From UHGV virus genome UHGV-1357953: DNA of 40,340 nt; one strand, given 5' to 3'. Positions within the stretch are counted from its first letter, which is position 1; each line of letters opens with the position of its first letter. The translations under genes were made by a program, and so were the position numbers. The DNA comes from a virus. Shown piece by piece: positions 14,477 through 40,340 of the stretch. The notes beneath the pieces were generated by a model. The model saw nothing but the letters and a program-made list of their open reading frames with translations, was not told the DNA's origin and searched no databases.

Positions 14477-14494
14477 CGCCGTCCGGCGCACCAA

Positions 14495-20008: not shown

Positions 20009-20018
20009 TGATTAACCC

Positions 20019-20714: not shown

Positions 20715-20716
20715 GG

Positions 20717-22125: not shown

Positions 22126-23543
22126 TACTCGATCCTTATCTGGCAGCCAGACAGAGTGACAGGTGACTTCGTGATAACGCGCAATTTGAAGCCGACATTT
22201 TTCCTGATGCGCCCGACTCGCTTCCACAAAACACGCTTGTCGTAAACGAACGGTTCATTCTGCTCAATCATCTGCTCACGACCGTAATTGATGCCATCAG
22301 TGGTTGCCGAGAGGAACAGGCGGTCGGCGTACTGAGCGACCCCCGTCGATGATTCCACCTCCAGATCAAAGCATCTGGCGTTATCTGCTTTGAAGAGTGG
22401 AGTAAACAGCAGGTGTTCTTGCTGTAGCCCATACTGGCTGCTGATGTCGAACTGCAATTTTCCGGTCACGGACTCCAGCTTATCGCCGCACGTTATCTGA
22501 TTGCCTTCGTAAATGAAGTCGATAGCGCGGTACACATCGTCATACAGGCCTGTTTTCAGCACACACCATTGCGGACCATTGGCGCTTGAAGATGCGTCGT
22601 ACACAAGGACGTGACGCGAAAGATGGATAATCAGCAACTCATGAGCATCAAACCGCAACGATTCCATCACACCATCAGCCAGTTCATCAGCAGTGTAGGA
22701 GCGGAGGATTTTCTCAATGCTCGCGCTGGCGATTGGTGATACCTGACCGGAGCCGATGATGTATACAGACGGAGCACCTGTTGCCGGATTGCTGATAAAC
22801 GCATAGGAATCAGCAAACGGCGTTTTGCAGTAAGTTCCGGCAATGCCTTTCTGCACCATCAGTGATGGCTGTGCGACATACAAAGCGGCACCAACGGTGG
22901 TTGCCCCAGTCAGGGAAAAATATTCAATCGTCGATGAACCAAAGCAGACGATGAAGTCTCGCCATGTTCCGATGCCGAGGATACCGTCCGGCTGCGATTC
23001 TGCGCGATATTGTGCGCTGTAACGGTCAGGATGCGATTCGTCTTCAGGGTCAGTGATAAACCATGAATCCGTGCCGTCTTTTGACCACGCATAACGCCCA
23101 CGTAAACGCGTAATGTCGCGAACCGAACCTAACTCATACTGAGTGAATCCGCTGTCTGTAGGCCAGTTTGAGACTGTTTTAACCGTTCCATCATAGCGAT
23201 ACTCGACCAGTTGACCATTAACGCCTACCGCCTGAGATGTTCGACCATGCGCCATTGATACGCGACCACTTCCGGCAACATCACCGACCTCGCTTTCGCC
23301 CTTATACAACTTGCCACCGCAAACGCGATAAACAGCATTCTGCGCCATGTTGTACTCGACACCGCGCGATACACCATTCACATCAGAGCGTTTGGCAATG
23401 CCAGGGAATGAGCGAAGATATCCACTGCTGTTGAGGATTTCTTTGGGGGTTGCCAGCATATTCACTGGCAGATAGTCGATATAGTCGGCGTTTCGAAAGT
23501 CTTTGCCGACACCTTTCATAAGCGGAAGTTGCTGAATCGGCAT
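22125..23543 (-). CDS. Tail hub protein, P22 gp10-like (472 aa)
   Basis: Synteny and size. Confidence 0.75.
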
Positions 23544-24020
23544 TATTCGCTCCCGTTATCGCAAGGTTCCTTTCGCTGGAAGTAATTCCAACCGTTCCAC
23601 TTCGCCAACTGGTTACCACTACCAACAGGCATACGGTTTGGATAACCGGACTTACATTTAGCGGCTTTTGCTCTGTCCATTGCAGACAGTTTGACGAGTC
23701 TCTCTTTCCCGTATCTGGCAGTGGTTATAAGTTTTGCAGACGCTTCCAGCGCATAATCCGGAGCAATGCGGCAGGCAAGGTTGAAAATGACGGCATTGAT
23801 AGCGTTATTTGATAAACCGTGCTCATCGCCCGGATCTGGAGCGACATCTGCATCAGCGAAAATGTAGCCAACGTTGATACCAGGTGACACATCACCGCCA
23901 AGCCATTCAGCCATCATCATTTCAAGGTCGTTGACGCCGTCTTCCATAGACTGCGGTTCGACATCGGTTAACGTGGCATTTGATGCCACACCGAGCTTAC
24001 GTAATGCCGCAAGAACTAAA

Positions 24021-24043
<23 letters not shown>
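23543..24043 (-). CDS. Tail accessory protein, P22 gp4-like (166 aa)
   Basis: [47 protein letters not shown] matches P22 gp4 as recalled; ATG at 24043. Confidence 0.85.
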
Positions 24044-24364
<321 letters not shown>

Positions 24365-24376
24365 GCTTGTCTCCAG

Positions 24377-24400
24377 ATAAAAAAGGGAGCCGAAGCTCCC
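24377..24400 (-). terminator. Intrinsic terminator immediately after the coat gene
   Basis: gggagc/gctccc hairpin with 4-nt loop followed on the minus strand by ttttttat. Confidence 0.6.
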
Positions 24401-24408
24401 TCTGGTTA

Positions 24409-25704
24409 TCACGCAGTCTGGTTAGGCAGACCAACACCAATTGCCTCTGGTCGTACAGCACATGCTGAATACCACACAGCAATACGGCACTTACCAGACA
24501 GAGTGTTGATATCACCCTGCGTTGCGAAGATGCCGTTAACACCAATACCTGGAATGCTGAAGGAAGAAGTTTTCATGCCAGCAAACAGTTCATGGGTTAC
24601 CGGAATCGGCTGAGACAGCAGGCGGATTGAGTCATCAGCCCAGAACACGTTAGCGGTGGTTGTTGCCACGTTCAGAACGTTTACCGGAGTGGTATTAGCA
24701 AGAGAGGTGTTTACGTTAGCGTAAGCCTTCTCTTCTTTTGTCAGTGACGCGTCATCCAGCGCAATCGGCTTCGGCGTGATTTCGATGTGAGTACTATCGA
24801 TCACTCGGGTGATTGAGAAAGTCGCATCATCAGTCAGCACGTTCTTCGCCATCTGAGACAGGAATTTCACACCAGTGAAGCTGATTTTGTCGCCGCGCTT
24901 AAATCCGGTGGTGGAGGATACGGTCACCGTTGCAACACGGTTGTCGACGTTCTCCTTGTTACCATCGGTATCAATGGTGTATGCCTGCGGCTTAAACTTC
25001 TGCGCTCCAGACACAGTTACACCAGTAGCGGTTGACTTGGTAACTGCCGGAAGTTTCGGTGAGCGAAGAATTTCATCAAAGCCAGCAATCTGACGCTGAA
25101 TAGTACCGTTGCGATACGCTTCTTCAGGAACGCGACCGAAGATGTCACCATCTACCAGGTTGCGGCCTGCTTTGCGGTAATCGTCAGGATTCAGGAAGTA
25201 ACTGATGCCCATATCGCGGTTTAGCTCACGGGAGAACATCAGTCGCTCTGCATCAGACACAAAATCCCATCCAGACAGGCCAGTAGATGGACCAATTGCG
25301 CGGGTATCGTGAACAACAAGCGAGCCCATTTCAGTTGCCTGTTTGGCAATTGCTGACTCAATGTTATTCGCCAGTTTTTTGGCGGATGCCTGGATGCGGC
25401 GACGGTAAGAACGCTCATCACGCAGGTCATCTGCACGAAGCTCGAAGAAATCGTTATCCGGATCGCCCATGTTGCATTTCACGGAGAGTTCCAGAATCCC
25501 GGTTGCGTTGTCAGTTAAATCCCAGCCAGTCTGGGTTGGCGCTTCCTGCTCAACAGGCATCCACACGGTGTTGCTTGAACGCTGCATTGATTCTGCCGGA
25601 GGGGTGTATTTTGTCACTTTGGACGCCATTGGCGTCAGGTTCTGGGCGGTTTCGATGATTTCATCCAGAGCATATGTGACCAGTTGACCTTCATTTAATG
25701 CCAT
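24409..25704 (-). CDS. Major capsid (coat) protein, P22 gp5-like (431 aa)
   Basis: Extensive match to P22 coat as recalled ([40 protein letters not shown]..). Confidence 0.9.
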
Positions 25705-26615
25705 TATCGAATTCCTTTATTCAGTTGCGCCTTAAGCTTGCGGTACGTCTCTACATCCCCTTTGTTTGCTGCCGCTTCCATCTGCTTTTCAATCGCAGAG
25801 ATATTTGCAGCAACAGCGTGTCCCTGAATGGGTTCATCAGGTAACGGGGCTTCTGAAACAGGCTTTGCTCGAGGCTTGAGAGTTAAACGTTCTGACAGTC
25901 GAGTGAGTTCAATCAGCGCGGATTGCCCGTCCATCGCCAGCAACTGGCGTGTTTTCTCAGGATTAGCACCAAGGTGATACATGAGAGCAGCGGATTTCTC
26001 CGGGAAGAGGCGCATGATGTCGGCACCGACTGCTGGCGGCACCAGTTGCATGAATGCATCCTCTTTCTCCTGATAGTCAGGGATATTGAGCTTTTCCGCT
26101 GCGTCGTAGTGCTTACGGGCTGCCTCGACGTATTGCGCTGATTGCTGGGTGAACTCCTGAGTTTTGCGACCCTGCTCGGCGACAGCCTGGCTTCGTGCGT
26201 CCATAGCCTTGATCTGCCATTCACTGTTTGCCTGCTGGAAGGCAGCCAGTGCGCGGCTCTGGTCATAGTCGTACTTAGCCAGTGCATCTTCGGAAAGATA
26301 ATCGTTAGGGTCTGGTTGTTTTGGTAACTCAGGGTTCACCCGCAGGTGCTCCGGCAACTCTCCACGCTTAACCGCTTCCATCTGCTGCTCAAGCTCACGC
26401 TGGCGTTTGCGTTCGATGCGGCGACGGGCAAATTCAGCATTAGTTGCCGGGTCTTGTTTTGGTTTCTCATCGTCTTTCAGGACAATCTCAAAGCCTTCTT
26501 CCTGACCTGCACTGTCGTTGGCATTATCGACAACTAAGCCATCAGCAGATGCCGCTGCATGATTGCCGGGCAGGGTTAATTCTTCAGAAGCCTGAATGTC
26601 GGTGGTTTGGTCCAT
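25704..26615 (-). CDS. Scaffolding protein, P22 gp8-like (303 aa)
   Basis: Match to P22 gp8 as recalled (..[29 protein letters not shown].. and C-terminal ..[12 protein letters not shown]). Confidence 0.85.
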
Positions 26616-26628
26616 GGTTAACTCTCTC

Positions 26629-28794
26629 TTATTGAGGTGTCTCGGCTACTCCGCCGGAGGGGATTTGAACTTGACGCATAAGATTCGCGAAATCCATGCG
26701 TTGTGAATGAGTCTGGTCTGCATCTTTAAGAAGCAGCTCAGCGTTAGCACGAGCATCTTTGCTGCGCTGTTGCTGGAATTGACCTACGAGCTTGAGGTAC
26801 TCACGCAGTTCTGCCTGCTTGTCGAGGTCCATATTGTTGAAGATTTCTGCAATCTTCGCGGCGTTGAGTTGGTTTTGGGCTTCAACCTTGGCGGCTTCAA
26901 CCTGAATCTGCGCCTGTTGGTTCTCTGCCTTGAGCAATTCAGCCTGACCTTGCAGAAGGATACCCTGCGCCTGAATTTGCTCTGCTGATGGCTGCTGCGG
27001 CTGCTGTTGAGCCTGCTGTACCATCTCCATCTCTTCAGGTGTTTCTGGTTTCTTCAGCCCCATCATCACCAGTTGCTTGTTCGCGTACTCTCGCATCATC
27101 TCGACGCCTTTACCGTCAAGCAGCGTGAAGTATTGCAGCATCAGCATCTGGAACTCTGGAGTACCTTGCGGAACCTTTGTTAGCAACTCCTGAATCTCTG
27201 CGCGGTTCTGTTCCTTCATGCTCTGGAAGGATGGTCCAACTCCTATATAGCACTCGTAGCGACCGCGAATGTCGTTGAGTGTGACCACATTACCGGACTG
27301 GTAATCGACAACTTGCGCGTAGAGTTGAACGTCTTTCTCGCTTCCATCTTCAAGTGTCAGCGTTACATGACGAGGGATGTCATAAATATCATTGACCATT
27401 GAGGCATAAATCTCGCCATCACGCCGCATTGCGGTAGCCAGGTTATCCTGAAACACGTATGTCTCAAGGTCTGACCGCATGTTCAGTTGATTGACGGTAT
27501 CGAAAGAGACCTGAGAGTTTGCTGCCTGTGCATCCACGCCAAGACTAGCCACCTCTTTCACTGCGTTGGTGGCAGCCTCAAGCATGTAAGCGTTGGCTTG
27601 CGGCACTTCAGGGTTTTCCATGTAGGAGATTGGACCAATCGGCAGGTCGTTACCGTTTTCATCAGTCCTGTTCTGGAGATAGTACGGATAGTCATCATTT
27701 CCACCGTACATGTATTCGTAGCCTTCGATTTGCTCAGGGAAGAAGGTCGGTTTCTTCTTCGGTGAACGACCAACAATATCGGCGTTGAATGACATGATCA
27801 TGTTACGAAGGCGTTGACCGTCTTTCGTCAGCCTTACCACTCCTTCGTAGCACTCCTTGTCACCAGCGAATGACCATTCGCCATACACTGGAACGATTGG
27901 AATATGCTCTCCTGCTATCTTCTCGCGGTCTTTCAGTATCTGTGTGCAGGTGATGATCGACTTATACACACGCCGACGCTTCACCTTGCGCTCTGCTACC
28001 TTAATGAATCCACGATTAGCCAGGTCGTCGATGACGTCTTTAATATCCTGCTGGTAATAGCTGACCGGCTCACCTGTCAGCGGGTCGCGGTAGATGAAGA
28101 CCTTCTCTTTCTTCTCTTCTATCTCGTAATACTCAGCGACGTAGACGACATCATTCGATACCCACGGAAACAGCCATGTGTCGTTCGGATTCTGGAAAGA
28201 TGGCAAGGTGTCCGGATCAATACCGTAATCCTCTGCGAACTCTTTCCAGCCATTGCGTGACAAGGCGTTAATCACCGTGCAGTGCTTAGCGTCGCTCTTA
28301 TCCATCTGCTTGCTGTTGGCGTCCCATATGACGTGTGAGCAGGCCTCATGGATTGGCAGGCGTCTGATTACCTGATTGTTGCTTGTTGGGTCGTTGTCTT
28401 CGTACTGTGTGACCAGACGCCATGCACCAACGCCGGACTCTATCTGCTCACGAACGCCAACGTTAACGGCAATCTTTGCCGTGTTATGGCGCATATCAGT
28501 ACGATACATCCCCATCAACACATCGGCTGCATCAGGATTAGCGCCGTCTTTGGGTCGGAAGAGAACGTCGATAGGGTTCCGGCGCATCTCTGCGACCAGT
28601 TTCCTGACCACTGGGCGAACAACATCGAATTGTCCGCGATATTGCAGGGTGGTGTAGTTTGATAGCCAGTCATCCCATTGCGACACTCGGCTAAAAAACA
28701 GGTCATTTGTCGCCTCGGTTCTGGCTTCATCGCTCGCCATCCAGTCTGCGTCAAACTTACACAGAATGGAATTGAGTCTGTTTTCGTCGGCCAT
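26629..28794 (-). CDS. Portal protein, P22 gp1-like (721 aa)
   Basis: Size and position between TerL and scaffold. Confidence 0.85.
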
Positions 28795-30294
28795 TTAAGT
28801 TCTCCGTGCGATGGGCCTGATTGGGGCTGGTATCTTTTTCTCTTTTGGTTTTTTGATGTCGCGCATCATTTTGGCGAAGCGGCGCATCATGTATGCATAG
28901 CGAACGGCTGAGAGAACGTCGTCGTTAAGCTTGACGATCTTCCCGTTTTCATCACGGTGATAGAGGCGGAACTCCTCAAAGAATGGCTCACAGGTGTTGA
29001 ATACTTTGAAGCGACCATCGAGCATCATGTCGCGCAATTCAGTGATGCCAGGCTCCACAGCATTACCGCCATCAGGCCATGTCGCATGCTCCTGCAACAT
29101 CATAAAACCAGCGTCTGCATACTGCCCTTTGAGCTGCTCACCGCCGCCCTTCTCATGCTGGTTTCCGTCATGAGGCCATGCGGTTGGCACTTTATGCGCC
29201 CATGATTTAACAGCTCCCCACGCCTGAACGGCTGTTTTTTCTTTCGCCTTCCACACGCGTGAAACGTAGATTGTGTCTGCGTCCTTATCCCACCAAAGCT
29301 GAACCTGCGCCTGTGGGTGATCCCATCCGAAATCCATCCCGCCAATTACGTAGAAGTGATCAGGACACTCGAACGGCTGACACTTAATCGTCTCTTCCGG
29401 TATCTGGAAGATTCGACCGCTACCCATCGTAGGAATACCGCGAGAACGCGCCTCTCTCTCATGCTCGGGATAGGATGCGATGATTTGCTCTTTCTGTTCG
29501 TCTGTGTAGTGCTCAGCGTCGTAGATGGTCATGTTGACCACTTTCTGCGACTTGCTGGGATTCTTCAGGAACTTGGTAACAACGTCAGACATCCCCATCA
29601 GCGGGGTAAACGTCAGAATTGAGAATTGCCCGTATTTGTTGGTACGGGTAAGACCTTCGCCATAAATGCTGTATGGTGGCTCTTCGTCAAACCACACGCC
29701 GTGGATTGTGTCACCCTGCCAGCGAGCGCGGCCTTGCGAGTATGGTTTGAAGTAGCAGATTGAAATGCCATCTTCAACGCCATCAGCCGTGTGATGCTTA
29801 ACCAGAAGATGATCAACAAGGTTCGGAAAGAAAGGAGACTTCTTCCAGCTAATGATGTCCTCTTTCGGTATAGAACCGTAGCCCGGTTCATCATTCTCTT
29901 CAATACGACCGCACAGGATGCGTTGAGTCGTTTTGGTTACCGTCTCGTTTGTCTCGCCACCAATCCAGAAGACAACAGGCTCATAGAAACGCTTACCTTT
30001 CCACTCCCCACCATATTTACCATCAGCAGGATAGCCTTTTGTGCCCGGATAACGCCCTGTAAGGTGAAACGCGACTTCAGCAGCACCAGTAAATGACTTA
30101 CCAAGCTGGTTACCAGCCATAAAACAGCGCTCTGGATAGTCATGCCCGGCGTCGATGAACTCACGCTGTTTGCTGTATGGCGTAAATTCATATAGCAGGT
30201 GTGTGTTCCGGTAGTTCTCTTCTTCTTCGAGTAGCTCGAGCAATTCGATTTGCTCTTCGTCGCTCAGGTTATCAAGAATCGCGTCCAGTTCCAC
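28795..30294 (-). CDS. Terminase large subunit, P22 gp2-like (499 aa), GTG start
   Basis: Size equals P22 gp2; ATPase and nuclease regions; overlaps TerS by 23 nt. Confidence 0.9.
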
Positions 30295-30760
30295 GGTTGA
30301 ATAGCTCCTTGATACGAGAGCGTCGCTTATCGCGATCTCCCTTATCAGGTGTCACGTCTTCAACTTGCGACTGCTCTTTGAGGCCCAAATCACGGGCGAT
30401 GATGTTAGCGTTGAGAAGGTCAGCGGCTGCGCCAGAGAATTTCTGGTCGTAGATGATGTCTTCCGCTCGTGATGTGACGTCAGAAAAACCTTCCATTGAC
30501 CGGAAGGTTCCCCATGTTTGCCTGGTGATATCAAGGAAGGTACACAATCCTGAAATAGTCATGGCTCGCATCTTAGGGACATTAGCCTTAATTATTTCTC
30601 CCTGATATGAAAATACCTTACCCTCCCATAGCGGGTTATCATCAGCCCACTCGAAGTATTCACAACAAGCTGCCCACAGCGCCTCAGGCGATTCGAATTT
30701 AGGATTTCGCCCATGACTACTGCGGGCCTCCCAAAATCGGTTGCCCTTTGGTGCTGCCAT
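30272..30760 (-). CDS. Terminase small subunit, P22 gp3-like (162 aa)
   Basis: [38 protein letters not shown].. and C-terminal ..[31 protein letters not shown] match P22 gp3 as recalled. Confidence 0.85.
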
Positions 30761-30795
30761 ATTCATCTCACTTAATCGTTATTTCAGGTTGAGCA

Positions 30796-31038
30796 TCATG
30801 CTCCGGTGGTGAACAGGTCTAACGCCTCCTTCGATTTACGCACCGCTTCGATTGTGCGGGTCGTGATATCTGAATTAGCGCCACCTGACTGGAAGTGAAT
30901 TTTGAATAGCTCAAGCTTCAGCTCGTCAGTGCCAATGAACTGAAATGCTTCTTCTGCGGCTGCGTTCTGGTTCATGACCAGTTTGTAAATCTCTAACTGG
31001 AATTTCTGTTCTTCAGTCATGGGAATAATCTCTGCCAT
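30796..31038 (-). CDS. Hypothetical protein (80 aa)
   Basis: ORF upstream of TerS. Confidence 0.45.
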   Translation of the reverse strand: MAEIIPMTEEQKFQLEIYKLVMNQNAAAEEAFQFIGTDELKLELFKIHFQSGGANSDITTRTIEAVRKSKEALDLFTTGA

Positions 31039-31177
31039 TGTTGGCTCCGTTTATCCGTTAAAAGGGATATCAGTTAAGTTATCCCGTGTAGGGTATAAGC
31101 CATTACCAAAGCCACTCTGTAGGGAATGGCTTTTGTGATGGCAATAAAAAAGGCCGCCTGAGCGACCTGTTAGTTGT

Positions 31178-31348
31178 TCACAACTTCCATTGAAGGTCCA
31201 GCATGTCGAAAAATGATCCGCATTTAGGGGGATTTTCTATTCTTGCCCTCTCTTCAGCCGCTTTGTAATAAGCCATTGGTCTTTTCACACCATCAGCACC
31301 AGTGATGTATTCAACGCCTTCCTTCGGATCTTTGTTCACGGAAACCAT
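31178..31348 (-). CDS. Small hypothetical protein (56 aa)
   Basis: ATG 31348 with GAGG RBS; the listed 31363 start is GTG. Confidence 0.3.
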   Translation of the reverse strand: MVSVNKDPKEGVEYITGADGVKRPMAYYKAAEERARIENPPKCGSFFDMLDLQWKL

Positions 31349-31729
31349 CGCAACCTCTTCCACTTGTTTATCATCGATTCAGCGGATGTCTTTCCATCAG
31401 TCCGCCACCACAAAGAATCTTTTTTGCCATAAGGCTGGAGGTTCATCTTTCAGTGGCTGCCAGTGTTATTTCCCCACTTTCTGGCTTGGGTTGTTTCGCG
31501 GTACTGCCGTAACTGGTTGCCCAGAATAAATTCCGGTTTCATTATCAAGCCCACCCGTAGATAGGCTTTGTAATGAACTGGCTCTTATCTCAACGCAGCC
31601 CCTTACCGCGCGCCAGATGCTCAACTTCAAGCATCAGCAATGAGATGTTTAATCTGGATTCACTCCAGAAGTGATCACCCCCCTGTCTACAGAGCCAGAT
31701 GTGAAGGATGATGAGTAAAATTATCGCTA

Positions 31730-32197
31730 TCATCGAAGGCATTGCGTCCTGATGTATTCCTGAAGCGTTCTCAGTGCTGTTTGGTCGCGGATAATTCCGT
31801 CCCGGATATCGAGAACGTTTCGTCCAGCAACTGGAGAGAGTTCGACGGTGGCATCATTGCCCATGCCGGAGGCGCTGGAGGTTTCGGCTGAGGATGGCAT
31901 ATGGCATTTTCCTTTGACGAACACCCGACCACCATTATCAAGCTTGCGCCGAAGAGCATCATTTTCAGCTTTCGCATCAGCTAACTCCTTCGTGTATTTA
32001 GCATCAAGTGCATCAGCAGTACGCTGGCGCTGCTGCATGTCAGTAATGGTGGCAGTCGCCTGCTTCAGCTCACTGACTTTTTTATCGCGCTGCTCTTTGT
32101 AGGTCATGGCGTTATCACGGTAATGATTAACAGCCCATGACAGGCAGACGATGATGCAGATAACCAGAGCGGAGATAATCGCGGTGACTCTGCTCAT
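31730..32197 (-). CDS. Rz: Rz i-spanin (155 aa)
   Basis: N-terminal TM then coiled coil; closely matches lambda Rz as recalled. Confidence 0.85.
31771..31977 (-). CDS. Rz1: Rz1 o-spanin lipoprotein embedded in Rz in the +1 frame
   Basis: Lipobox LIMVVGCSS and Pro-rich [16 protein letters not shown], as in lambda Rz1. Confidence 0.7.
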
Positions 32198-32670
32198 ACC
32201 TCAATCTCTCTGACCGTTCCGCCCGCTTCTTTGAATTTTGCAATCAGGCTATCAGCCTTATGCTCGAACTGACCATAACCAGCGCCCGGAAGTGAAGCCC
32301 AGATATTGCTGCAACGGTCAATTGCCTGACGAATATCACCGCGATCAATCATCGGTAAAGCGCCACGTTCTTTAATCTGTTGCAGTGCCACAGCGTCCTG
32401 GCTTTTCGGAGAGAAGTCTTTCAGGCCAAGCTGCTTACAATAGGCATCCCACCAACGGGAAAGAAGCTGGTAACGCCCGGCGGCTGTTGATTTGAGTTTT
32501 GGGTTTAGCGTGACAAGTTTGCGAGGGTGATCGGAGTAATCAGTGAATAGCTCTCCTCCTACAATGACGTCATAACCATGATTTCTGGTTTTCTGTCGTC
32601 CGTTATCAGTTCCCTCTGACCACGCCAGCATATCGAGGAACGCCTTACGTTGATTATTGATTTCCACCAT
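32194..32670 (-). CDS. R: Endolysin, lambda R-type lytic transglycosylase (158 aa)
   Basis: Near-identical to lambda R as recalled ([53 protein letters not shown]..). Confidence 0.95.
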
Positions 32671-32977
32671 CTTCTACTCCGGCTTTTTTAGCAGCGAAGC
32701 GTTTGATAAGCGAACCAATCGAGTCAGTACCGATGTAGCCGATGAACACGCTCGTTATATAAGCGAGATTGCTACTTAGTCCGGCGAAGTCGAGAAGGTC
32801 ACGAATGAACCAGGCGATAATGGCGCACATCGTTGCGTCGATTACTGTTTTTGTAAACGCACCGCCATTATATCTGCCGCGAAGGTACGCCATTGCAAAC
32901 GCAAGGATTGCCCCGATGCCTTGTTCCTTTGCCGCGAGAATGGCGGCTAACAGGTCATGTTTTTCTGGCATCTTCAT
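32654..32977 (-). CDS. S: Holin, lambda S-type with dual start MKM (107 aa)
   Basis: Near-identical to lambda S as recalled ([41 protein letters not shown]..). Confidence 0.95.
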
Positions 32978-33373
32978 GTCTTACCCCCAATAAGGGGATT
33001 TGCTCTATTTAATTAGGAATAAGGTCGATTACTGATAGAACAAATCCAGGCTACTGTGTTTAGTAATCAGATTTGTTCGTGACCGATATGCACGGGCAAA
33101 GCGGCATGAGGTTGTTAGCGCAGCCTCTTGCCACCCGCTTTCACGAAGGTCATGTGTAGAAGGCCGCAGCGTAACTATCACTGATGAATTCAGGATAGCC
33201 AGTGGCTACGGCTCAGTTTGGGTTGTGCTGTTGCTGGGCGGCGATGACGCCTGTACGCATTTGGTGATCCGGTTCTGCTTCCGGCATTCGCTTAATTCAG
33301 CACAACGGAAAGAGCACTCGGTGCATTTAAGACAAGCTCCATAAGGGAGAATGCTCTTACCTGTTACACAGAT

Positions 33374-33431
33374 ATAAAAAATCCCGAAACCGTTATGCAG
33401 GCTCTAACTATTGCCTGCGAACTGTTTCGGG
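33374..33431 (-). terminator. tR'-like terminator ending the 6S transcript
   Basis: cccgaaac..gtttcggg stem followed on the minus strand by attttttat; lambda-like. Confidence 0.55.
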
Positions 33432-33568
33432 ATTGCATTTTACAGACCTCTCAGCCTGCGATGGTTGGAGTTCCAGACGATACGTCGAAGTGACCAACTA
33501 GGCGGAATCGGTAGTAAGCGCCGCCTCTTTTCATCTCACTACCACAACGAGCGAATTAACCCATCGTT
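33376..33568 (-). ncRNA. Lambda-type 6S RNA (pR' to tR' short transcript) including the qut region
   Basis: ~190-nt interval between the pR'-like promoter and tR' that matches the lambda pR'-tR' region as recalled. Confidence 0.5.
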
Positions 33569-33574
33569 GGGTCA

Positions 33575-33603
33575 AATTTACCCAAGTTTATTCAAAAAGT
33601 CAA
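33575..33603 (-). promoter_or_regulatory. Late promoter pR': -35 TTGACT, 17-bp spacer, -10 TAAATT
   Basis: Hexamers and spacing as in lambda pR'; directly downstream of Q. Confidence 0.6.
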
Positions 33604-33645
33604 TATCATGCCGTTAATATGTTGCCATCCGTGGAAATCATGCTG

Positions 33646-34269
33646 CTAACGTGTGACCGCATTCAAAATGTTGTCTGCGATTGACTCTTCCTTGTGGCAT
33701 TGCACCACCAGAGCGTCATACAGCGGCTTAACAGTGCGTGACCAGGTGGGTTGGGTAAGGTTTGGGATTAGCATCGTTACAGCGCGATATGCGGCGCTTG
33801 CTGGCATCCTGGAATAGCCGACGCCTTTGCATCTTCCGCACTCTTTCTCAACAACTCTCCCCCACTGCTCTGTTTTTGCTATATCAACCGCACGACCTGT
33901 ACCGTGGCAATCTCTGCATCTTGCGCCCGGCGTCGCGGCACTACGGCAATAATCCGCATAAGCGAATGTTGCGAGCACTTGCAGTACCTTTGCCTTAGTA
34001 TTTCCTTCAAGCTTTGCCACACCACGGTATTTCCCCGATACCTTGTGTGCAAATTGCATCAGATAGTTGATAGCCTTTTGTTTGTCGTTCTGGCTGAGTT
34101 CGTGCTTACCGCAGAATGCAGCCATACCGAATCCGGCTTGTGATTGCGCCATCCCCATAGCAGCCATCACATCAGTACCGGAAAGAGAGTCAGAAGCCGT
34201 AGCCCGTGGTGAGTCGCTCATCATTGGGCTTTTTGGCGAATGAAATTTAGCTACGCTTTCGAGTCTCAT
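33646..34269 (-). CDS. Q: Late antiterminator Q (207 aa)
   Basis: Near-identical to lambda Q as recalled (MRLESVAKFHSPKSPMMSDSPRATASDSLSGTDVMAAMGMAQSQAGFGMAAFCGKHELSQNDKQKAINYLMQFAHKVSGKYRG..). Confidence 0.95.
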   Translation of the reverse strand: MRLESVAKFHSPKSPMMSDSPRATASDSLSGTDVMAAMGMAQSQAGFGMAAFCGKHELSQNDKQKAINYLMQFAHKVSGKYRGVAKLEGNTKAKVLQVLATFAYADYCRSAATPGARCRDCHGTGRAVDIAKTEQWGRVVEKECGRCKGVGYSRMPASAAYRAVTMLIPNLTQPTWSRTVKPLYDALVVQCHKEESIADNILNAVTR

Positions 34270-34454
34270 CGTCTTCCCCTCTTGCCCTGTTTGACCATCA
34301 GGACGCCGTTAACTATTACGTGACGCTCACCTTTGCTGTCTCGGTTGTACTTGAGCACTGTTCCTCTTGCGCAGGAAAGCATCCTCGCCACTTCGGTCTG
34401 ATTGTCTCGTGTCTGGATAAGAAGCTCTGGTATCGTTTGAATTGTGGCGTTCAT
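34266..34454 (-). CDS. ninH: NinH-like protein (62 aa)
   Basis: ..GNQTEVAR.L.C.RGTV.KY..D..G..H.IVN.VLMV pattern as in lambda NinH. Confidence 0.55.
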   Translation of the reverse strand: MNATIQTIPELLIQTRDNQTEVARMLSCARGTVLKYNRDSKGERHVIVNGVLMVKQGKRGRR

Positions 34455-34813
34455 GCGTTCTCCAGTTCGGTGATTTTTATTCCAAGCCGTCCGCCTGGTA
34501 CTTTCACACCACGAATTACGCGAATGTCATCGAATTGCTCGTCGTCTTCCGCAAATCCGGCGTGGATAAGGGAATCGAGTAAACCTTTCAGGATGTTGTC
34601 GAGGTCGCGGCGGCGGGAGTCTGGAACGTCTGCGATGACTTTGATGCGGAGTCGTGATTTGGTGAAAATGTCTAACTTAAGTTGGCGGATGATTTGCTGA
34701 ACGTCTTTTCGGTATTTCTGGCCTTTATCGCTTATGTAATATTGGCTTCCCCGTCTTCGCCAGTAGGTATTCACCGACGGCGGGTATGGAAGCACAAACT
34801 GATATTCGTTCAT
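34451..34813 (-). CDS. rusA: RusA-family Holliday-junction resolvase (120 aa)
   Basis: PDSRRRDLDNILKGLLDSL and GGRLGIKITE motifs typical of RusA. Confidence 0.85.
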   Translation of the reverse strand: MNEYQFVLPYPPSVNTYWRRRGSQYYISDKGQKYRKDVQQIIRQLKLDIFTKSRLRIKVIADVPDSRRRDLDNILKGLLDSLIHAGFAEDDEQFDDIRVIRGVKVPGGRLGIKITELENA

Positions 34814-35100
34814 GACTTAATCTTCCCCTCCCTCAGCAGTATCGCCTGCGTCCTGATCACGCCTTCGAGGTGGTAAAGTCTGGCGTCTTTGTTGTCGATA
34901 TTATGGGTGCGTCGGTCGATCTCCGCGTGGCAGTCACTACAAGCCCATGCACCGATCAGGTCGTCAGGCTTCATTCCCGTTCCGCAAATTCCAGCCATCC
35001 GGTAATGTGCCAGAACTGTAGTTTCAGGATTGCCATTGCATACGCCGTAAATACGTACCTGGCATTCTCTGTTGCGCGCTTCTTTGCGTAGGTTAGCCAT
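34810..35100 (-). CDS. ybcO: YbcO-like / DUF1364 protein (96 aa)
   Basis: MANLRKEARNRECQVRIYGVCNGNPETTVLAH...CSDCHAEIDRR resembles E. coli YbcO as recalled. Confidence 0.6.
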   Translation of the reverse strand: MANLRKEARNRECQVRIYGVCNGNPETTVLAHYRMAGICGTGMKPDDLIGAWACSDCHAEIDRRTHNIDNKDARLYHLEGVIRTQAILLREGKIKS

Positions 35101-35825
35101 TAAGCAGCCTCTCCTGTTACTTTCAGCATTCCGTTATCGAGCAGCTTTCTGGTCAGCCACTGTTGGCCACGTCCGGTGATTTTTGTAGTGAACGATATCT
35201 GTATTCCGTGATTTGTGTTGACCGCTGTTTCTTTCACTGTGAAATAGCCGCGATCCATATATTCCTGCATTGGCACATTGCGCCGGGAACCTGAAGCAAT
35301 AAGGATTTTGTGATCGCGCATCCACGCAAACAGTTTGTTTGGACCAATTCCAACAACCTTTGCAAAGTTTCCAATCAAAATTCCGCTGGCCTCGCCAACG
35401 CGATCGGCAAACTCAACTTTAGGTGCGGCAATTGCGAGCTGGTTTTCCAGTTGCATTTTCTGCTCAGCAAGGTTAGCAGCAAGGCGCAACGCTTCTGGTA
35501 GCGTTTTGGGGATATTAACCGCAGCTTCTTCAAGCTCTCGCCAACGGTCAACAAGGCGAGCGGTGAACTCTGGCGACAACTGGGCGACGACAATAATGCT
35601 GTCTCGCTTTCCTTGTTCGCCCTCGAAGACGTAGAAATCACGCTTCCCGGTAATAACACCTAAATCATTGATTATGTTAGTGTGCTGCAATGCAGGAGGC
35701 TTGATAACGCCACGTTTCACCAATCTATCTATGGATACTTTTACATTGCTATGGCGGCTTTCTACCAACTCAGCGATTTCAATGCTTGTCATTTTGATGG
35801 CATTGCCATTTATTAACTCATTCAT
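35100..35825 (-). CDS. Rha/KilAC-type antirepressor-like regulatory protein in the nin region (241 aa)
   Basis: C-terminal ..ILIGNFAKVVGIGPNKLFAWMRDHKIL.. is KilAC-like. Confidence 0.6.
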   Translation of the reverse strand: MNELINGNAIKMTSIEIAELVESRHSNVKVSIDRLVKRGVIKPPALQHTNIINDLGVITGKRDFYVFEGEQGKRDSIIVVAQLSPEFTARLVDRWRELEEAAVNIPKTLPEALRLAANLAEQKMQLENQLAIAAPKVEFADRVGEASGILIGNFAKVVGIGPNKLFAWMRDHKILIASGSRRNVPMQEYMDRGYFTVKETAVNTNHGIQISFTTKITGRGQQWLTRKLLDNGMLKVTGEAA

Positions 35826-35988
35826 CGTCTTCTTCCTCGAACATTGAGCTATTCGGATCGCTCATCAGTTCTGCGCAGCAGTGCTCACATACGTGAACTT
35901 CCAGCACATGCAGCTTCTGACCGCAATTAGCGCACGTTAAAGCCCGCTCGACGCTTTCTTGTTCGTAACTTCGATTTGGGTCAATCAC
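35818..35988 (-). CDS. Small Cys-rich zinc-ribbon-like protein (56 aa), GTG start
   Basis: [20 protein letters not shown]; GAGGA RBS 7 nt before GTG that overlaps the upstream TGA. Confidence 0.35.
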
Positions 35989-36167
35989 CTTGTATTCCTC
36001 GCACGATTTCTTAGCCACCGGATATCCCACAAGTGAGCCGTGTAGTTGAAGGTTTTTACGTCAGATTCTTTTGGAATTGGCTTGCGTTTATTTCTGGAGC
36101 GTTTCGTTGGAAGGTATTTGCAGTTTTCGCAGATGATGTCGGTGAAACTTCGTCGCTGTCGTCTCAT
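35985..36167 (-). CDS. Small basic hypothetical protein (60 aa)
   Basis: ATG 36167 overlapping the methylase stop. Confidence 0.3.
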
Positions 36168-36691
36168 GTCGCCCTCCTGACGCCCTGCCCGATCGCCATC
36201 AATGCCGCTTTGGATACGGTAGTAAACATCCGTCGAGGACTGATGAACGGTCGCCAAATCAGCAGCATGGAGCCTTTGCTGTTTCCCTTCTTCTCCAGCC
36301 CCGTCGATGGTTCGATAAAATTAATCCGTCCATCAGTGATGATGCGAACTTCGTCAACGCTCTCCAGAGCCTTGCTGAACCATCCGACTGACATATCCTC
36401 TGGCACAAGCATCACTACCGTCTGTCGCTGTTGTATGCACTGCTCAGCAGCTTTTTCCACCCACGGCCTGATATTGCTGTACGGTGGGTTATTCCAGATT
36501 GCACCGTGGCTTACCCACTCAGAATTGAGCGCGTCGTCGGCCTCAGTTAGCCAGTGAGCGCACAGAGCATTTTTGTCGCTCGCTGCCGAATCCAGCCAGA
36601 ATCCAAACTCAATATCCAGTGCATCAAAAAGCCAAAGCGGCGTTTGCCAGCAGTCCTTGTCGTGTGCCGGCGTATTTGATTTGATAGTCAC
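36164..36691 (-). CDS. Phage Dam-type N6-adenine DNA methyltransferase
   Basis: NPPY catalytic motif (WNNPPYSN) and [17 protein letters not shown]-terminal region; probable GTG start at 36691 overlapping the ninB stop. Confidence 0.75.
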
Positions 36692-37113
36692 TCTACTTGC
36701 CTCTCCTTTAGATCCAGGTACTCGCAATTATCAGGAATGGTTAGTCGTAATCCCTTCTGATGCGCCCACTGGTCAATATCGGTCAGATATTTGTGCATAT
36801 CTCCAATATCAAGCTGACGTGTTGATTTAACGCATCGTGTAATATTAAAAATCGTCACCCTTTTAGCCGGACAAAACATATCTTTCAGCCACTCATGAAC
36901 CTCTTCAGGCGTGAAGTTTTCAGCAGAAGCAGCAGATAACTGTGCGGCTATTTCTGCATTCCACACCCACATCAGATTGTTTTGTGACAATGTACGCTTC
37001 TCACGGTACTCAGATATTTTGATTCGCCAGCGTTTGCCGGTAGAGAGGATTTGTTTCAGAACTAACCAGAATTGTGATTTATTGGTTTCGTGCAGAATGA
37101 AATCATTCATCAT
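36688..37113 (-). CDS. ninB: NinB (Orf) recombination mediator (141 aa)
   Basis: ..REKRTLSQNNLMWVWNAEIAAQL.. resembles lambda NinB; nin-region synteny. Confidence 0.75.
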   Translation of the reverse strand: MMNDFILHETNKSQFWLVLKQILSTGKRWRIKISEYREKRTLSQNNLMWVWNAEIAAQLSAASAENFTPEEVHEWLKDMFCPAKRVTIFNITRCVKSTRQLDIGDMHKYLTDIDQWAHQKGLRLTIPDNCEYLDLKERQVE

Positions 37114-37330
37114 CAGTCATCAAATCTAATTGCTGGATAATTCTGTCACACTGAAAATCATTATCGATTTTAACCAACCGGCGAAGAACGCGGTCACGCG
37201 GATAGATACGTGGCTTAGGGGCGTTTTTCTGTCTCTCGCCAGTCGGAAGTCTGGAAGCAGACCAGTACCGATTTGCACGACCAATGTTCTCCTGAAAGTC
37301 GGCGCGGACAAGCTCAGTCATCGAACTCAT
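37103..37330 (-). CDS. Hypothetical nin-region protein (75 aa)
   Basis: ORF with ATG start. Confidence 0.4.
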   Translation of the reverse strand: MSSMTELVRADFQENIGRANRYWSASRLPTGERQKNAPKPRIYPRDRVLRRLVKIDNDFQCDRIIQQLDLMTDDE

Positions 37331-37359
37331 TTCTTAAAGCCTCCAATTACTCTCCCCCA

Positions 37360-37390
37360 AATAAAAAGGCCTGCGATTACCAGCAGGCCT
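37360..37390 (-). terminator. Intrinsic terminator downstream of the helicase gene (tR2-like position)
   Basis: aggcctgc/gcaggcct 8-bp stem followed on the minus strand by ttttatt. Confidence 0.5.
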
Positions 37391-37415
37391 GTTATTAGCT
37401 CAGTGATGTAGATGG

Positions 37416-38177
37416 TCATACGTCAGCCCCTTGTGCATATCGTCTGCCACGCGCAGCAGGTGCATTTGATGCTGTGCAAATCTGTCTGGCTTCATCCTGG
37501 TCACACGCAACAAAGTGTCCGTTGCAGAACCGCTGGTAAACCGTACCAAGTGAGCCAAAACGGTTTTTCGTCACGATGATTTCAGCAAATGGCGCGGCGC
37601 TACTGTTCTCGTCATATACAGCTTCCCGATAGAGCATGATGATTGAGTCTGCGTCCTGTTCAATGCTTCCTGAATCACGCAAATCTGCGTTTGTCGGGCG
37701 CTTGTTTGGTCGCTTCTCAACATCGCGTGAAAGCTGACTCAGGGAAATAACCGGTGTTTTCAGGTCTTTCGCCATCGCCTTCATGCTTCCGGAGATGTGA
37801 GCAATTGCGAGGTCGTTGCGGTCTGCTTTCGGCTTCTCAATCAGGCCAAGATAATCCGCCATGATGAGTGACAGGTTTGGATTTTCCTGTTTGTGCCTTT
37901 CTGCGATTGAGCGAATTTCTTCGACCGATAACCGCGAGGCATCGACTACCCATACATCCAAATCTGCAAGCTGACTCATGCCGTTAGCAACACGCGCCCA
38001 GCCTTCGTCATCCATCGATGCAGGATTTCGCAGTACGCTAACCGACATTCTCCCGGCGTTGGCAATGCTTCGCTCTGCAATCTGCAATGCGCTCATTTCC
38101 ATTGAGAAAATCAATACTCCGCGCCGGACGTCAGAACCAGGAATAACGCGGCTTGCAACGCCTTCGGCAATCTTCAG
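37416..38177 (-). CDS. DnaB-like replicative helicase, C-terminal 253 codons ([29 protein letters not shown]... to stop); N-terminal part lies inverted at 39674..40340
   Basis: Frame stays open upstream of the listed start (which is an internal TTG) back to 38177; first 17 codons duplicate the last 17 codons of the plus-strand fragment. Confidence 0.8.
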
Positions 38178-38232
38178 CGCGCAGAAACAGATTTACTCAT
38201 CAACCTGTCAACGCTTACCCAGCGCGGTCTGG
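38126..38232. repeat. Junction composite: 38126..38180 is the reverse complement of 40286..40340, and 38178..38232 is the reverse complement of 1..55
   Basis: Both identities are exact, exactly 55 bp, and abut with a 3-bp overlap (cgc) at 38178..38180. Confidence 0.9.
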
Positions 38233-38432
38233 CAAAGATGATTGGCTGTCATGAATCGAAGATAAGCAGAACGGACTGGAGATTTATTGCTTCGGTCTTG
38301 TGTGCTTTCGGAATGGCATCAGACATCAGTCCGATTAGCAGGGCTTTTAAGTATGCGCTTGATGAAATCACCAATAAAAAACGCCCGGTGTGCAAGACCG
38401 AGCGTTCTGAACAAATCCAGATGGATTTTTAA
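38178..38432 (+). CDS. cII: cII-like activator, C-terminal 84 codons (RAETDLL...[21 protein letters not shown]); no start codon, truncated at the junction
   Basis: Open frame begins at the junction without an initiator; C-terminus is lambda CII-like; first 18 codons duplicate the minus-strand fragment at 1..55. Confidence 0.6.
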
Positions 38433-38454
38433 CAACATCCAACGAGGTAATTAT

Positions 38455-38727
38455 ATGCGAAACAAAGGCTTTAATCCACCTGATACACACAAAGAAGCTA
38501 AGCGTTTGCGCTTCCTTCGTTCCATTGATGAAAGAACTCAAATCTCTTTTGTGAAAGTTGCCAGAACTGAGCTTCTGAAGGCTGAGGCGAGGGCGTTGCT
38601 CCAGTCTCTACCAAAAGAGGAGGGATATACGTTCATTCCAAACGCATTTCTGGAAAAGCTTCTCAAAGAAGACATATCCGTAAGTCAGTTTAACGATGTT
38701 CTTAAGGTCTTTCGTCAAGGCAGGTAG
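38455..38727 (+). CDS. Hypothetical protein between cII and O (90 aa)
   Basis: ATG 38455 with GAGGT RBS; the listed ORF from 38287 is an upstream extension. Confidence 0.5.
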   Translation: MRNKGFNPPDTHKEAKRLRFLRSIDERTQISFVKVARTELLKAEARALLQSLPKEEGYTFIPNAFLEKLLKEDISVSQFNDVLKVFRQGR

Positions 38728-38729
38728 TT

Positions 38730-39677
38730 ATGAGCAATACAGCAAAAATCTACGATTTCAGCGCCGCACACGAGCGCAGGAGCAACAGGATGGAGAACCA
38801 GAAAACTGGTTACATTCCGTTGTACCGGAGCATTCTGAAACAGTCATGGGCGAAAGATGTTTATCTTCGCACCCTGTGGGAAAACCTTCTCCTGAATGCC
38901 GCCAGAAAGCCATACAAAGCGAATTTCAAAGGTAATGAATGGCATCTGCAACCCGGTCAACTGGTTGTGACAGCAGCTGATTTAGGTCTTCAGTTATGCG
39001 ACAGACATGGCAAGCCAGCAAGCCGTGATCAGGTTGAGCGGATGCTTCAGGTTTTTGTGAAAGAGGGGATGATCTCCATTGATGGAGAGAAGCAAAAAGG
39101 TCGTGTGATAACCATCACAAATTACCATGAATATGCTCAAAAAATGGACGATTTACCCGCACATGAAGCCGCACAAACAACCGCACATGATTCCGCACAT
39201 GATGAAGCCAGCAATGGCGCGGCTTTCAGCGTACATGCCGCACATGAAAGCGCACATGAAGCCGCACAAACAACCGCACATCATGAACAAGAAGGTATTA
39301 ACAAGAATATAAATAATACCCCCCTACCCCCCAATGGGGGAGGCGATGGGCAGGTTAAACCTGAACGTCGCAAGGCAGAACGAATCGACTACGAATCCTT
39401 CCTGAACGCCTACAACACCGAAGTCGGTGACAGACTGCCACACGCTGTTGCGGTCAACGAGAAACGCAAACGCCGCCTGAAGAAAATCATCCCGCAACTG
39501 AAAACGCCAAACGTGGACGGTTTCAGGGCGTATGTCAGGGCGTTTGTGCATCAGGCCAAGCCGTTTTACTTCGGAGACAACGACACGGGCTGGACGGCTG
39601 ATTTTGATTACCTGCTGAGAGAAGACTCGTTAACGGGAGTTCGGGAAGGGAAGTTTGCAGACAGGGGGATTGCATGA
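38730..39677 (+). CDS. O: O-like replication initiator (315 aa) containing the origin iterons
   Basis: N-terminus [10 protein letters not shown] resembles lambda O (MTNTAKILNF); internal [10 protein letters not shown] repeats are encoded by the iterons; TGA overlaps the helicase ATG. Confidence 0.75.
39157..39345. other. Replication origin-like region: eight CCGCACA(T/A)GA-type iterons, AT-rich segment, then cccccctaccccccaatggggg
   Basis: Direct repeats inside the O-like gene followed by an AT-rich stretch, as in lambda ori. Confidence 0.5.
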
Positions 39678-40340
39678 AACAGGATATCGAAGCGAGCGTT
39701 ATCGGTGGCCTGCTGATTGGTGGATTAACACCAACCGCCAGCGACGTTCTGGCAACGCTGGAGCCGGAAGCGTTTTCAATTCCGCTCTACCGGAAAGCCT
39801 TCGAGGTTATCCGCAAGCAGGCGCGAAACAGAAACCTAATCGACGCGCTGATGGTTGCCGAGGCGTGCGGAGAGGAGCATTTCACGTCAATCCTGATGAC
39901 CAGCAAAAACTGCCCGAGTGCCGCAAACCTGAAGGGATATGCCGGAATGGTCGCGGATAACTATCACCGCCGTCTGGTGCTGGAAATCATGGATGAAATG
40001 CGTGAACCAATTCAGAGCGGAACCATCGATACATCGAGTCAGGCGATGGACGAGCTCGTAAAGCGTCTTTCAGCTATCAGAAAGCCCCGTGACGAGGTTA
40101 AACCTGTACGGTTAGGGGAAATCATCACCGACTACACTGACACGCTTGACAGGCGTCTGAGGAACGGAGAAGAGTCCGATACCCTGAAGACCGGAATCGA
40201 AGAGCTTGACGCTATCACCGGAGGGATGAACGCAGAAGACCTGGTGATAATCGCTGCTCGTCCTGGTATGGGGAAAACCGAACTGGCGCTGAAGATTGCC
40301 GAAGGCGTTGCAAGCCGCGTTATTCCTGGTTCTGACGTCC
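39674..40340 (+). CDS. DnaB-like replicative helicase, N-terminal 222 codons including Walker A ([17 protein letters not shown]); runs off window end, C-terminal part inverted at 38177..37416
   Basis: ATG 39674 overlapping the O stop; N-terminal DnaB-like domain; last 55 nt are the reverse complement of 38126..38180. Confidence 0.8.
40286..40340. repeat. Terminal 55-bp segment, exact reverse complement of 38126..38180 (inverted overlap B)
   Basis: Direct comparison; identity stops exactly at 40285/38181. Confidence 0.9.

What the first reader, a model, noticed from the sequence alone, without database searches (positions are those of the whole stretch)
38126..38232. Replication module is split and inverted; both window ends are 55-bp reverse-complement copies of the internal junction
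Seen directly: rc(1..55) = 38178..38232 and rc(40286..40340) = 38126..38180, both exact and exactly 55 bp, meeting at 38177/38178 with a 3-bp overlap. cII is broken into codons 1-33 (100..1, minus) and codons 16-99 (38178..38432, plus, no start codon). The DnaB-like helicase is broken into an N-terminal 222 codons (39674..40340, plus) and a C-terminal 253 codons (38177..37416, minus). Re-inverting 38178..40340 and merging the two 55-bp overlaps gives a circular genome of ~40.2 kb with intact cII (99 aa) and helicase (458 aa) in canonical cro-cII-O-helicase order. Because 55 is a standard de Bruijn k-mer length and the record contains an N-gap, the likeliest explanation is two contigs of a circular phage genome joined in the wrong relative orientation; a genuine inversion is the less likely alternative. 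As written, the sequence predicts a phage without functional cII or helicase.
Basis: partly seen in the sequence, partly recalled or inferred. Interest (0 to 1): 0.85.

Follow-up and report, generated by a model that had tools for sequence, protein, structure and literature searches.

The report
Assembly artefact: flipped phage replication segment
The "split and inverted" replication genes come from how this phage genome was assembled (k-mer size 55): turning the last 2.1 kb around restores an ordinary 40,233-bp circular P22-like phage with intact cII and helicase genes.

Summary
Both matches are exact, neither extends to 56 nt, and the two internal copies overlap by 3 nt. Inverting 38178..40340 and merging the two 55-nt overlaps gives a 40,233-bp circle with a full-length cII (99 aa) and DnaB-type helicase (458 aa).

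No sequence in five collections spans the junction as written.

The window also contradicts a simple inversion by itself. It still contains the canonical sequence running 55 nt past each breakpoint.

A k=55 de Bruijn graph of the repaired circle plus the 107-nt junction branches at exactly four new 55-mers. These are the two window ends and the two internal copies. The path through the graph is 40,340 nt, the window length.

The 10-N gap shows the same k-related signature: a hexamer tract reaching 58 and 61 nt into the repeat on its two sides.

Verdict: not a biological feature. I add that the join looks like a graph path through a short chimeric or minor-variant junction, not a blunt concatenation of contigs.

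The parts
1..55 (.). Terminal 55-mer Y': exact reverse complement of 38178..38232. It is a graph vertex shared by the long and short segments.
1..100 (-). cII N-terminal fragment (codons 1-33, ATG at 100). It continues canonically 55 nt past the breakpoint.
242..457 (-). cro-like HTH gene (71 aa), upstream of cII in the rightward early operon
   Evidence: 100% identical contig L179, Pfam HTH_3/HTH_31
533..1228 (+). cI-like repressor (231 aa, HTH_3 + Peptidase_S24), divergent from cro
37416..38180 (-). DnaB-type helicase C-terminal fragment (in-frame codons 206-458 from 38177, plus stop). It has no start codon of its own.
38126..38180 (.). 55-mer X: last 55 nt of the long segment, exact reverse complement of 40286..40340
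38126..38232 (.). 107-nt artefactual junction (X and Y overlapping by CGC). Its 51 internal 55-mers (52 56-mers) occur nowhere in the repaired genome.
38178..38232 (.). 55-mer Y: first 55 nt of the flipped segment, exact reverse complement of 1..55
38178..38432 (+). cII C-terminal fragment (codons 16-99 plus stop)
38455..38727 (+). 90-aa ORF of unknown function between cII and O. The same gene is called in all contigs that carry the identical O protein.
38730..39677 (+). Replication initiator O (315 aa, Pfam Phage_rep_O), with 12-nt periodic repeats at 39158..39284
39674..40340 (+). DnaB-type helicase N-terminal fragment (codons 1-222, includes Walker A GMGKT). It runs off the window end.
40286..40340 (.). 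Terminal 55-mer X': exact reverse complement of 38126..38180
24091..24219 (.). Second assembly artefact: a 10-N gap (24149..24158) inside a (GGCTCT)n tract. The periodic flanks are 58 and 61 nt (k+3, k+6), and the gap shifts the reading frame.

Best explanation
The window is a mis-assembled record of an ordinary circular (circularly permuted) P22-like/Sf6-like E. coli phage of 40,233 bp. The true gene order is cI / cro-cII-orf90-O-DnaB helicase-nin genes-Q.

The data were assembled with a de Bruijn graph at k=55. In that graph the true circle consists of a 38,180-nt segment (window 1..38180) and a 2,163-nt segment (window 38178..40340). The two segments share the 55-mers X and Y' as vertices.

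A third, short edge is the 107-nt junction 38126..38232. It leaves the circle at X inside the helicase gene. It re-enters on the opposite strand at Y inside cII, with a 3-nt microhomology (CGC). The reported sequence is the walk long segment -> junction -> short segment. The short segment is therefore traversed backwards, and the walk stops at X' because the only way on is the reverse complement of what has already been used.

That is why each window end is a 55-nt reverse-complement copy of one side of the internal junction, and why cII and the helicase each appear as two overlapping fragments.

Shown: the repeats, the repaired genes, the canonical order in identical and related sequences, the absence of the written junction elsewhere, and that the graph model reproduces the anatomy.

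Inferred: the assembler was SPAdes-like, and the junction edge came from chimeric (fold-back or template-switch type) reads and not from real genomes.
For: 1. Both repeats are exact and exactly 55 nt, each with one arm at a window end. 55-nt overlapping ends are what a default SPAdes run gave for a circular phage (PMC8483715).

2. The repaired circle gives a 99-aa cII covering the whole Pfam Phage_CII model. It also gives a 458-aa helicase with both DnaB domains.

L180 and L184 are also 100%, and L049 is 99.99%. Against the written sequence, each of these matches breaks into pieces at the junction (38178-38184) and at 40340/1, with the 55-nt overlaps visible in the subject coordinates.

4. Eight of the nine contigs on record that encode the identical O protein were shown. 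Wherever the contig reaches far enough, each has cII (97-99 aa)-O-DnaB (458 aa) on one strand. The annotated EC11 prophage does too.

5. Written 3-kb region: 0 of 442 matching phage records hold it in one place, and matches start exactly at 38178. Repaired region: 53 records hold it in one place.

6. A 300-nt stretch around the junction matches 1,617 complete E. coli genomes, and none spans the junction.

7. The junction 27-mer has 0 hits in the viral, genome and metagenome collections. The repaired joins are found in at least 120 and in 59 viral contigs. Among 186 fetched loci, 86 span repaired join 1, 132 span repaired join 2, and 0 span either written join.

8. In a k=55 graph of the repaired circle, the only branching vertices are in the hexamer tract. 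Adding the 107-nt junction creates exactly four new branching vertices: X, X', Y and Y'. The path length 38180+52+2108 equals 40340.

9. The N gap lies in a (GGCTCT)n tract with 58- and 61-nt periodic flanks and breaks the reading frame. This is a second k=55-type signature.

10. There is no inverted repeat above chance near the breakpoints: the longest is 8 nt, with 4 found and 5.5 expected.
Against: No reads, assembly graph or assembly metadata are available. The assembler, the k value and the existence of junction-bearing reads are therefore inferred from the sequence alone.

A path chooser would normally prefer the well-covered true edge over a chimeric one. The walk through the junction therefore implies either appreciable junction coverage or a less careful assembler.

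The 100%-identical contigs come from other samples. They show what the same sequence looks like elsewhere, not what was in this sample.
Confidence: 0.94

Rival explanations
1. Same artefact, different step. Two finished contigs (38,180 and 2,163 nt) of the circular genome were joined afterwards by a scaffolder, an overlap-merging tool or the submitter. The short contig went in the wrong orientation, and the shared CGC was merged. In this case no read carries the junction.
For: The record was clearly scaffolded somewhere (10-N gap). The contig ends are graph vertices at k=55. The junction 27-mer is found nowhere else.
Against: A circle made of only two segments would have been merged into one contig unless something made X and Y' branch. 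The repaired circle alone has no branching 55-mers there. Relatives show no mosaic boundary exactly at either join. Blunt concatenation predicts abutting 55-mers (40,343 nt), not a 3-nt overlap. A 3-nt merge is below any usual overlap threshold (my own knowledge of such tools, not tested).
Confidence: 0.25
2. The junction is real but rare. A subpopulation of phage DNA molecules carries an inverted join between helicase nt ~613 and cII nt ~46. It arose by template switching or microhomology-mediated repair, and the assembler threaded it into the consensus.
For: The graph model requires junction k-mers in the data. The join has a 3-nt microhomology, with 6 of 8 bases matching when extended. The helicase breakpoint lies 9-12 nt from the site where related phages carry an intein with a homing endonuclease.
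Against: Such molecules lack an intact cII and helicase, so they cannot be the propagating genome. Nothing in the window supports the reciprocal junction. Inverted joins with 2-21 nt of complementarity are the typical signature of amplification chimeras (PMC1855051). Either way, the record's structure is still wrong for the phage.
Confidence: 0.05
3. A genuine, fixed inversion of the 2.1-kb cII-O-helicase segment in this phage or prophage. That would make it a replication-defective element.
For: Taken at face value, the written sequence shows the segment on the opposite strand.
Against: An inversion moves sequence but does not duplicate it. Here both 55-mers are present twice. The window still contains the canonical sequence through both breakpoints (helicase nt 558-667 at 40231..40340; cII nt 1-100 at 100..1). 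Canonical molecules were therefore in the data.

There are no flanking inverted repeats. No invertase family appears among the Pfam labels of the neighbouring genes. No other sequence has this arrangement.
Confidence: 0.01

Closest known systems
k-mer-length terminal overlap of circular genomes assembled with SPAdes (for example the 55-bp overlapping ends trimmed from phage 132, PMC8483715)
   Same: Exact duplications of exactly 55 nt sit at the contig ends. They are a by-product of graph vertices, and the genome is a circular or circularly permuted phage genome.
   Different: Normally the two ends are direct copies of each other. Here each end is a reverse-complement copy of one side of an internal junction, because one segment of the circle was traversed backwards.
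Inverted chimeric junctions from amplification or library preparation (Lasken & Stockwell 2007, PMC1855051)
   Same: The join is intramolecular and inverted, between sites about 2.1 kb apart, with a short complementary overlap of 3 nt. The reported range is 2-21 nt, and more than 85% of the reported chimeras are inverted.
   Different: It is not known whether this sample was amplified. The origin of the junction k-mers is inferred, not shown.
Site-specific invertible segments of phages (Mu G/Gin, P1 C/Cin; recalled from the literature, not tested against those sequences)
   Same: A DNA segment of a few kb lies in the opposite orientation to its relatives.
   Different: There are no flanking inverted crossover sites and no invertase nearby. 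The breakpoints fall inside two essential genes, so only one orientation encodes functional proteins.
Lambdoid early-right replication module with a DnaB-type helicase, as in P22-like phages and the prophage of E. coli EC11 (NZ_CM169490)
   Same: After repair, the order and sizes of cro, cII, O, DnaB helicase, DUF7301, NinB and Dam are the same. The EC11 prophage is 99.9% identical over 5.8 kb, and contig L179 is 100% identical over 8.4 kb.
   Different: Nothing differs once repaired. As written, cII and the helicase are each split.

Membership tests
de Bruijn-graph (k=55) assembly artefact | Duplicated sequence at segment ends is exact and of one fixed length equal to a usual k | tested here: met
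   Both repeats are exactly 55 nt at 100% identity, and the match fails at 56. 55-nt overlapping ends are reported for a default SPAdes phage assembly.
de Bruijn-graph (k=55) assembly artefact | A graph model reproduces the segment boundaries and the total length | tested here: met
   The circle plus the 107-nt junction gives exactly four new branching 55-mers, which are the window ends and the internal copies. The path is 40,340 nt.
de Bruijn-graph (k=55) assembly artefact | Undoing the join restores intact genes and the order seen in independent sequences | tested here: met
   cII of 99 aa and helicase of 458 aa, both full length in Pfam. L179 is 100% identical over 8,395 nt through both joins.
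de Bruijn-graph (k=55) assembly artefact | Reads and read pairs support the canonical joins and do not support the written one as the majority form | not testable with these tools
   No reads or assembly graph are available.
Site-specific invertible DNA segment (Gin/Cin/Hin type) | Inverted-repeat crossover sites flank the segment | tested here: not met
   The longest inverted match within 300 nt either side of the two breakpoints is 8 nt. Four were found against 5.5 expected by chance.
Site-specific invertible DNA segment (Gin/Cin/Hin type) | An adjacent serine invertase gene | tested here: not met
   The Pfam labels on all called genes for several kb on either side, in 100%-identical contigs, list no resolvase or invertase family. 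Only the neighbourhood was checked, not the whole window.
Site-specific invertible DNA segment (Gin/Cin/Hin type) | Both orientations are compatible with function | tested here: not met
   The written orientation truncates cII and the helicase.
Genuine chromosomal inversion | Sequence is moved, not duplicated, and the canonical junctions are absent | tested here: not met
   Both 55-mers are present twice, and the canonical sequence continues through both breakpoints at the window ends.

The most novel reading that the evidence does not exclude
The inverted junction might come from real DNA molecules and not from chimeric reads. The helicase-side breakpoint (window 40285-40288, equivalent to 38177-38180) lies 9-12 nt from the exact site (40276|40277, between K and T of the Walker A GMGKT) where related Stx2a phages carry an intein with a LAGLIDADG homing endonuclease.

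If the phage was grown in a host that expresses such an endonuclease, cleavage of its intein-less allele could be repaired by microhomology-mediated joining. That could produce a detectable population of fold-back or inverted genomes.
Probability: 0.03. Interest if true: 0.4.

Novelty: not a real feature. Interest (0 to 1): 0.05.

Why it matters
The value is practical. As deposited, the record would be annotated with a truncated cII, two helicase fragments and a frame-shifted head gene. It could be misread as a replication-defective or rearranged phage.

The correct genome is a 40,233-bp circle. To obtain it, invert 38178..40340, merge the two 55-nt overlaps and size the hexamer repeat at 24149..24158.

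The case also gives a recognisable signature for automated quality control. The signature is window ends that are k-length reverse-complement copies of the two sides of one internal point. It marks a segment traversed backwards in a de Bruijn graph. It holds no new biology.

Tried and rejected
(1) Second related prophage as the cause of the graph break. I tabulated where alignments of 186 related loci end. Boundaries cluster at repaired-region positions of about 3350, 5150, 6000-6050, 6350 and 6450, not at either join. The few ends near join 1 are the intein insertion.

(2) An intein-containing helicase allele in the sample as the cause of the break at X. The four intein-plus alleles read ACGGAACTGGCGCTG after the intein. 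The first shared 55-mer would then start at 40280, not 40286, so the fit is not exact.

(3) Looking for the source record, or any gene call of the written fragments, among 15 billion proteins. Five candidate fragment ORFs were not found. This is a weak negative: the look-up is by exact sequence, and start-codon choice and the terminal stop may differ.

(4) Inverted repeats or crossover sites at the breakpoints. None exceeds chance.

(5) Hairpin-telomere or terminal-inverted-repeat readings. The two window ends are not copies of each other. Their partners lie inside coding sequence of two genes.

Full report
**Observation**

The reverse complement of 1..55 is found at 38178..38232, and that of 40286..40340 at 38126..38180. 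Both matches are exact and both fail at 56 nt. The two internal copies share 38178..38180, CGC.

They are the only long inverted repeats in the window; the next best pair is 33 nt at 79%. With about 1.6e9 position pairs and a probability of 4^-55 each, about 1e-24 such matches are expected by chance. Each match also has one arm exactly at a window end.

A single 10-N run lies at 24149..24158.

- cII has its ATG at 100 on the minus strand and runs off the start of the window after codon 33.
- 38178..38432 carries cII codons 16-99.
- 39674..40340 carries helicase codons 1-222.
- 38177..37416 carries helicase codons 206-458.

**What is there**

The window is a P22-like/Sf6-like (Lederbergvirus) E. 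coli phage. Its best relatives are phages JEP4, APC_JM3.2, Louie, Sf101 and Sf6, at 92-95% identity over collinear stretches.

I took 1..38180 as one segment and the reverse complement of 38178..40340 as the other. Their ends overlap by exactly 55 nt at both joins, and they close into a circle of 40,233 bp.

In that circle:
- cII is 99 aa and covers the whole Pfam Phage_CII model (positions 1-91 of 91).
- The helicase is 458 aa, with the DnaB N-terminal and DnaB_C domains.
- The gene between them is a Phage_rep_O protein.
- The order is cI / cro-cII-orf90-O-DnaB-DUF7301-NinB-Dam...Q on one strand. The annotated prophage of E. coli EC11 has the same order.

**Comparison with other sequences**

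The written 3-kb region (37300..40340) is not held in one place by any of 442 matching phage records, and the matches begin exactly at 38178. The repaired 3.3-kb region is held in one place by 53 records.

A 300-nt stretch centred on the written junction matches 1,617 of 5,426 complete E. coli genomes. None spans it.

A 27-mer across the written junction has no match in IMG/VR viral contigs, in 185,579 species-representative genomes or in JGI metagenome contigs. Patterns that bridge the repaired joins (12 nt + 55 N + 12 nt) find at least 120 viral contigs for cII. For the helicase they find 59 viral contigs and one genome.

Eight of the nine contigs on record that encode the identical O protein were shown. 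Wherever the contig reaches far enough, each carries cII (97-99 aa), O and a 458-aa DnaB on one strand.

The strongest result comes from identical contigs. L180 and L184 are also 100%, L049 is 99.99%, and the EC11 prophage is 99.9% through join 1.

Against the written sequence, each of these alignments breaks into pieces at the junction (38178-38184) and at 40340/1. The 55-nt overlaps are visible in the subject coordinates.

Of 186 fetched loci, 86 span repaired join 1, 132 span repaired join 2, and none spans either written join. These loci were selected with the repaired patterns, so the counts are not independent of that choice. The written pattern, however, recruited no locus at all.

**Why a real inversion does not fit**

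An inversion relocates sequence without duplicating it. Here both 55-mers occur twice.

The window also still contains the canonical sequence running through each breakpoint. Helicase nt 558-667 are contiguous at 40231..40340, and cII nt 1-100 are contiguous at 100..1. Whatever produced the record therefore had canonical molecules in its data.

There are no inverted repeats above chance within 300 nt of the breakpoints: the longest is 8 nt, with 4 found against 5.5 expected. No invertase family appears among the Pfam labels of the neighbouring genes. The written orientation destroys two essential genes.

**How the artefact most likely arose**

I built a k=55 de Bruijn graph of the repaired circle. 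Its only branching vertices lie in the hexamer tract at the N gap.

Adding the 107-nt written junction (38126..38232) creates exactly four new branching 55-mers. They are X (38126..38180), X' (40286..40340), Y (38178..38232) and Y' (1..55). The walk long segment -> junction -> short segment has length 38180 + 52 + 2108 = 40,340, the window length.

This one model accounts for:
- why the circle fell into these two segments;
- why both window ends are whole vertices;
- why the internal copies overlap by 3 nt. That overlap is the microhomology at a junction, where the last true 55-mer on one side and the first on the other both include the shared bases.

The model implies that 51 junction-specific 55-mers were present in the reads. 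The simplest source is chimeric reads. Inverted intramolecular joins primed on 2-21 nt of complementarity are the dominant chimera type in displacement amplification (PMC1855051). Whether this sample was amplified is unknown.

An alternative is that two finished contigs were concatenated afterwards. I think this less likely. Nothing else would make X and Y' branch, and blunt concatenation would give abutting 55-mers, not overlapping ones.

k=55 is the final k of a default SPAdes run on short reads (my own knowledge). A published phage assembly reports exactly such 55-bp overlapping ends (PMC8483715).

**Second artefact in the same record**

The 10-N gap sits in a (GGCTCT)n tract. The perfectly periodic flanks are 58 and 61 nt, that is k+3 and k+6. 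This is what a k=55 graph yields when a tandem repeat exceeds k.

Ten is not a multiple of three, so the Glu-Pro repeat (EPEPEP) becomes QSQSQS after the gap. The small repeat-containing ORF is thereby fused in frame with the gp4 head-tail adaptor gene. In phage APC_JM3.2 these are two separate genes, and a repeat_region is annotated there.

**Leads that did not hold**

- A second related prophage as the cause of the graph break is not supported by the mosaic boundaries.
- The helicase breakpoint lies 9-12 nt from the site where related Stx2a phages carry a 339-aa intein with a LAGLIDADG endonuclease. However, the intein-plus alleles predict a shared 55-mer starting at 40280, not 40286. The proximity may be coincidence.
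- An exact look-up of five written-fragment ORFs among 15 billion proteins found nothing. This is a weak negative.

**Verdict**

The feature is an assembly artefact, not biology.

The correct genome is the 40,233-bp circle with intact cII and helicase. Interest is low. The residual novel reading is that the junction reflects real rearranged molecules, perhaps linked to the intein homing site. I put it at about 3%.

Noticed in passing
window 24091..24219 (gap at 24149..24158); ORF 23543..24412 (-): The 10-N gap lies in a (GGCTCT)n tract that encodes a Glu-Pro repeat. The periodic flanks are 58 and 61 nt. The gap length shifts the frame (EPEP... becomes QSQS...) and fuses a small repeat protein with the gp4 head-tail adaptor gene. 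Relatives have two genes here and a much shorter repeat (51 nt annotated in APC_JM3.2), so this phage has an expanded repeat of unknown length.
   Followed up: partly
L001 2669..3685 (Stx2a phage LC616031.1); also L019, L059, L075; the homologous site in the window is 40276|40277: Related phages carry a 339-aa in-frame insert in the same helicase, between K and T of the Walker A motif GMGKT. It starts with Ala and ends THN followed by Thr. It has two LAGLIDADG-like motifs, with Pfam hits to LAGLIDADG_3 and Hom_end. It is an intein with a homing endonuclease. From memory its features (Ala1, Trp in NHLW, Cys in ECLCI, T-H-N) resemble class 3 inteins. The window carries the intein-less allele.
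   Followed up: partly
window 39158..39284 (+), inside the O gene: There are 12-nt periodic repeats (CCGCACATGAAG / CCGCACAAACAA / CCGCACATGATT...) that encode AHE/AQTT/AHD repeats in the O protein. This may be an iteron-type origin inside O, as in lambda.
   Followed up: no
window 3193..4161 (+): A 322-aa ORF contains long Glu/Ala/Lys-rich imperfect repeats (repeat families D3 and D4). It lies in the early-left region next to a DUF2528 gene in relatives. Its function was not examined.
   Followed up: no
L002 6060..6488 and L178 4222..4650: Some near-identical relatives (EC11 prophage, JGI contig Ga0250193_00774) carry an extra 142-aa HNH endonuclease gene between cII and the 90-aa ORF. That gene is absent from the window.
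   Followed up: no
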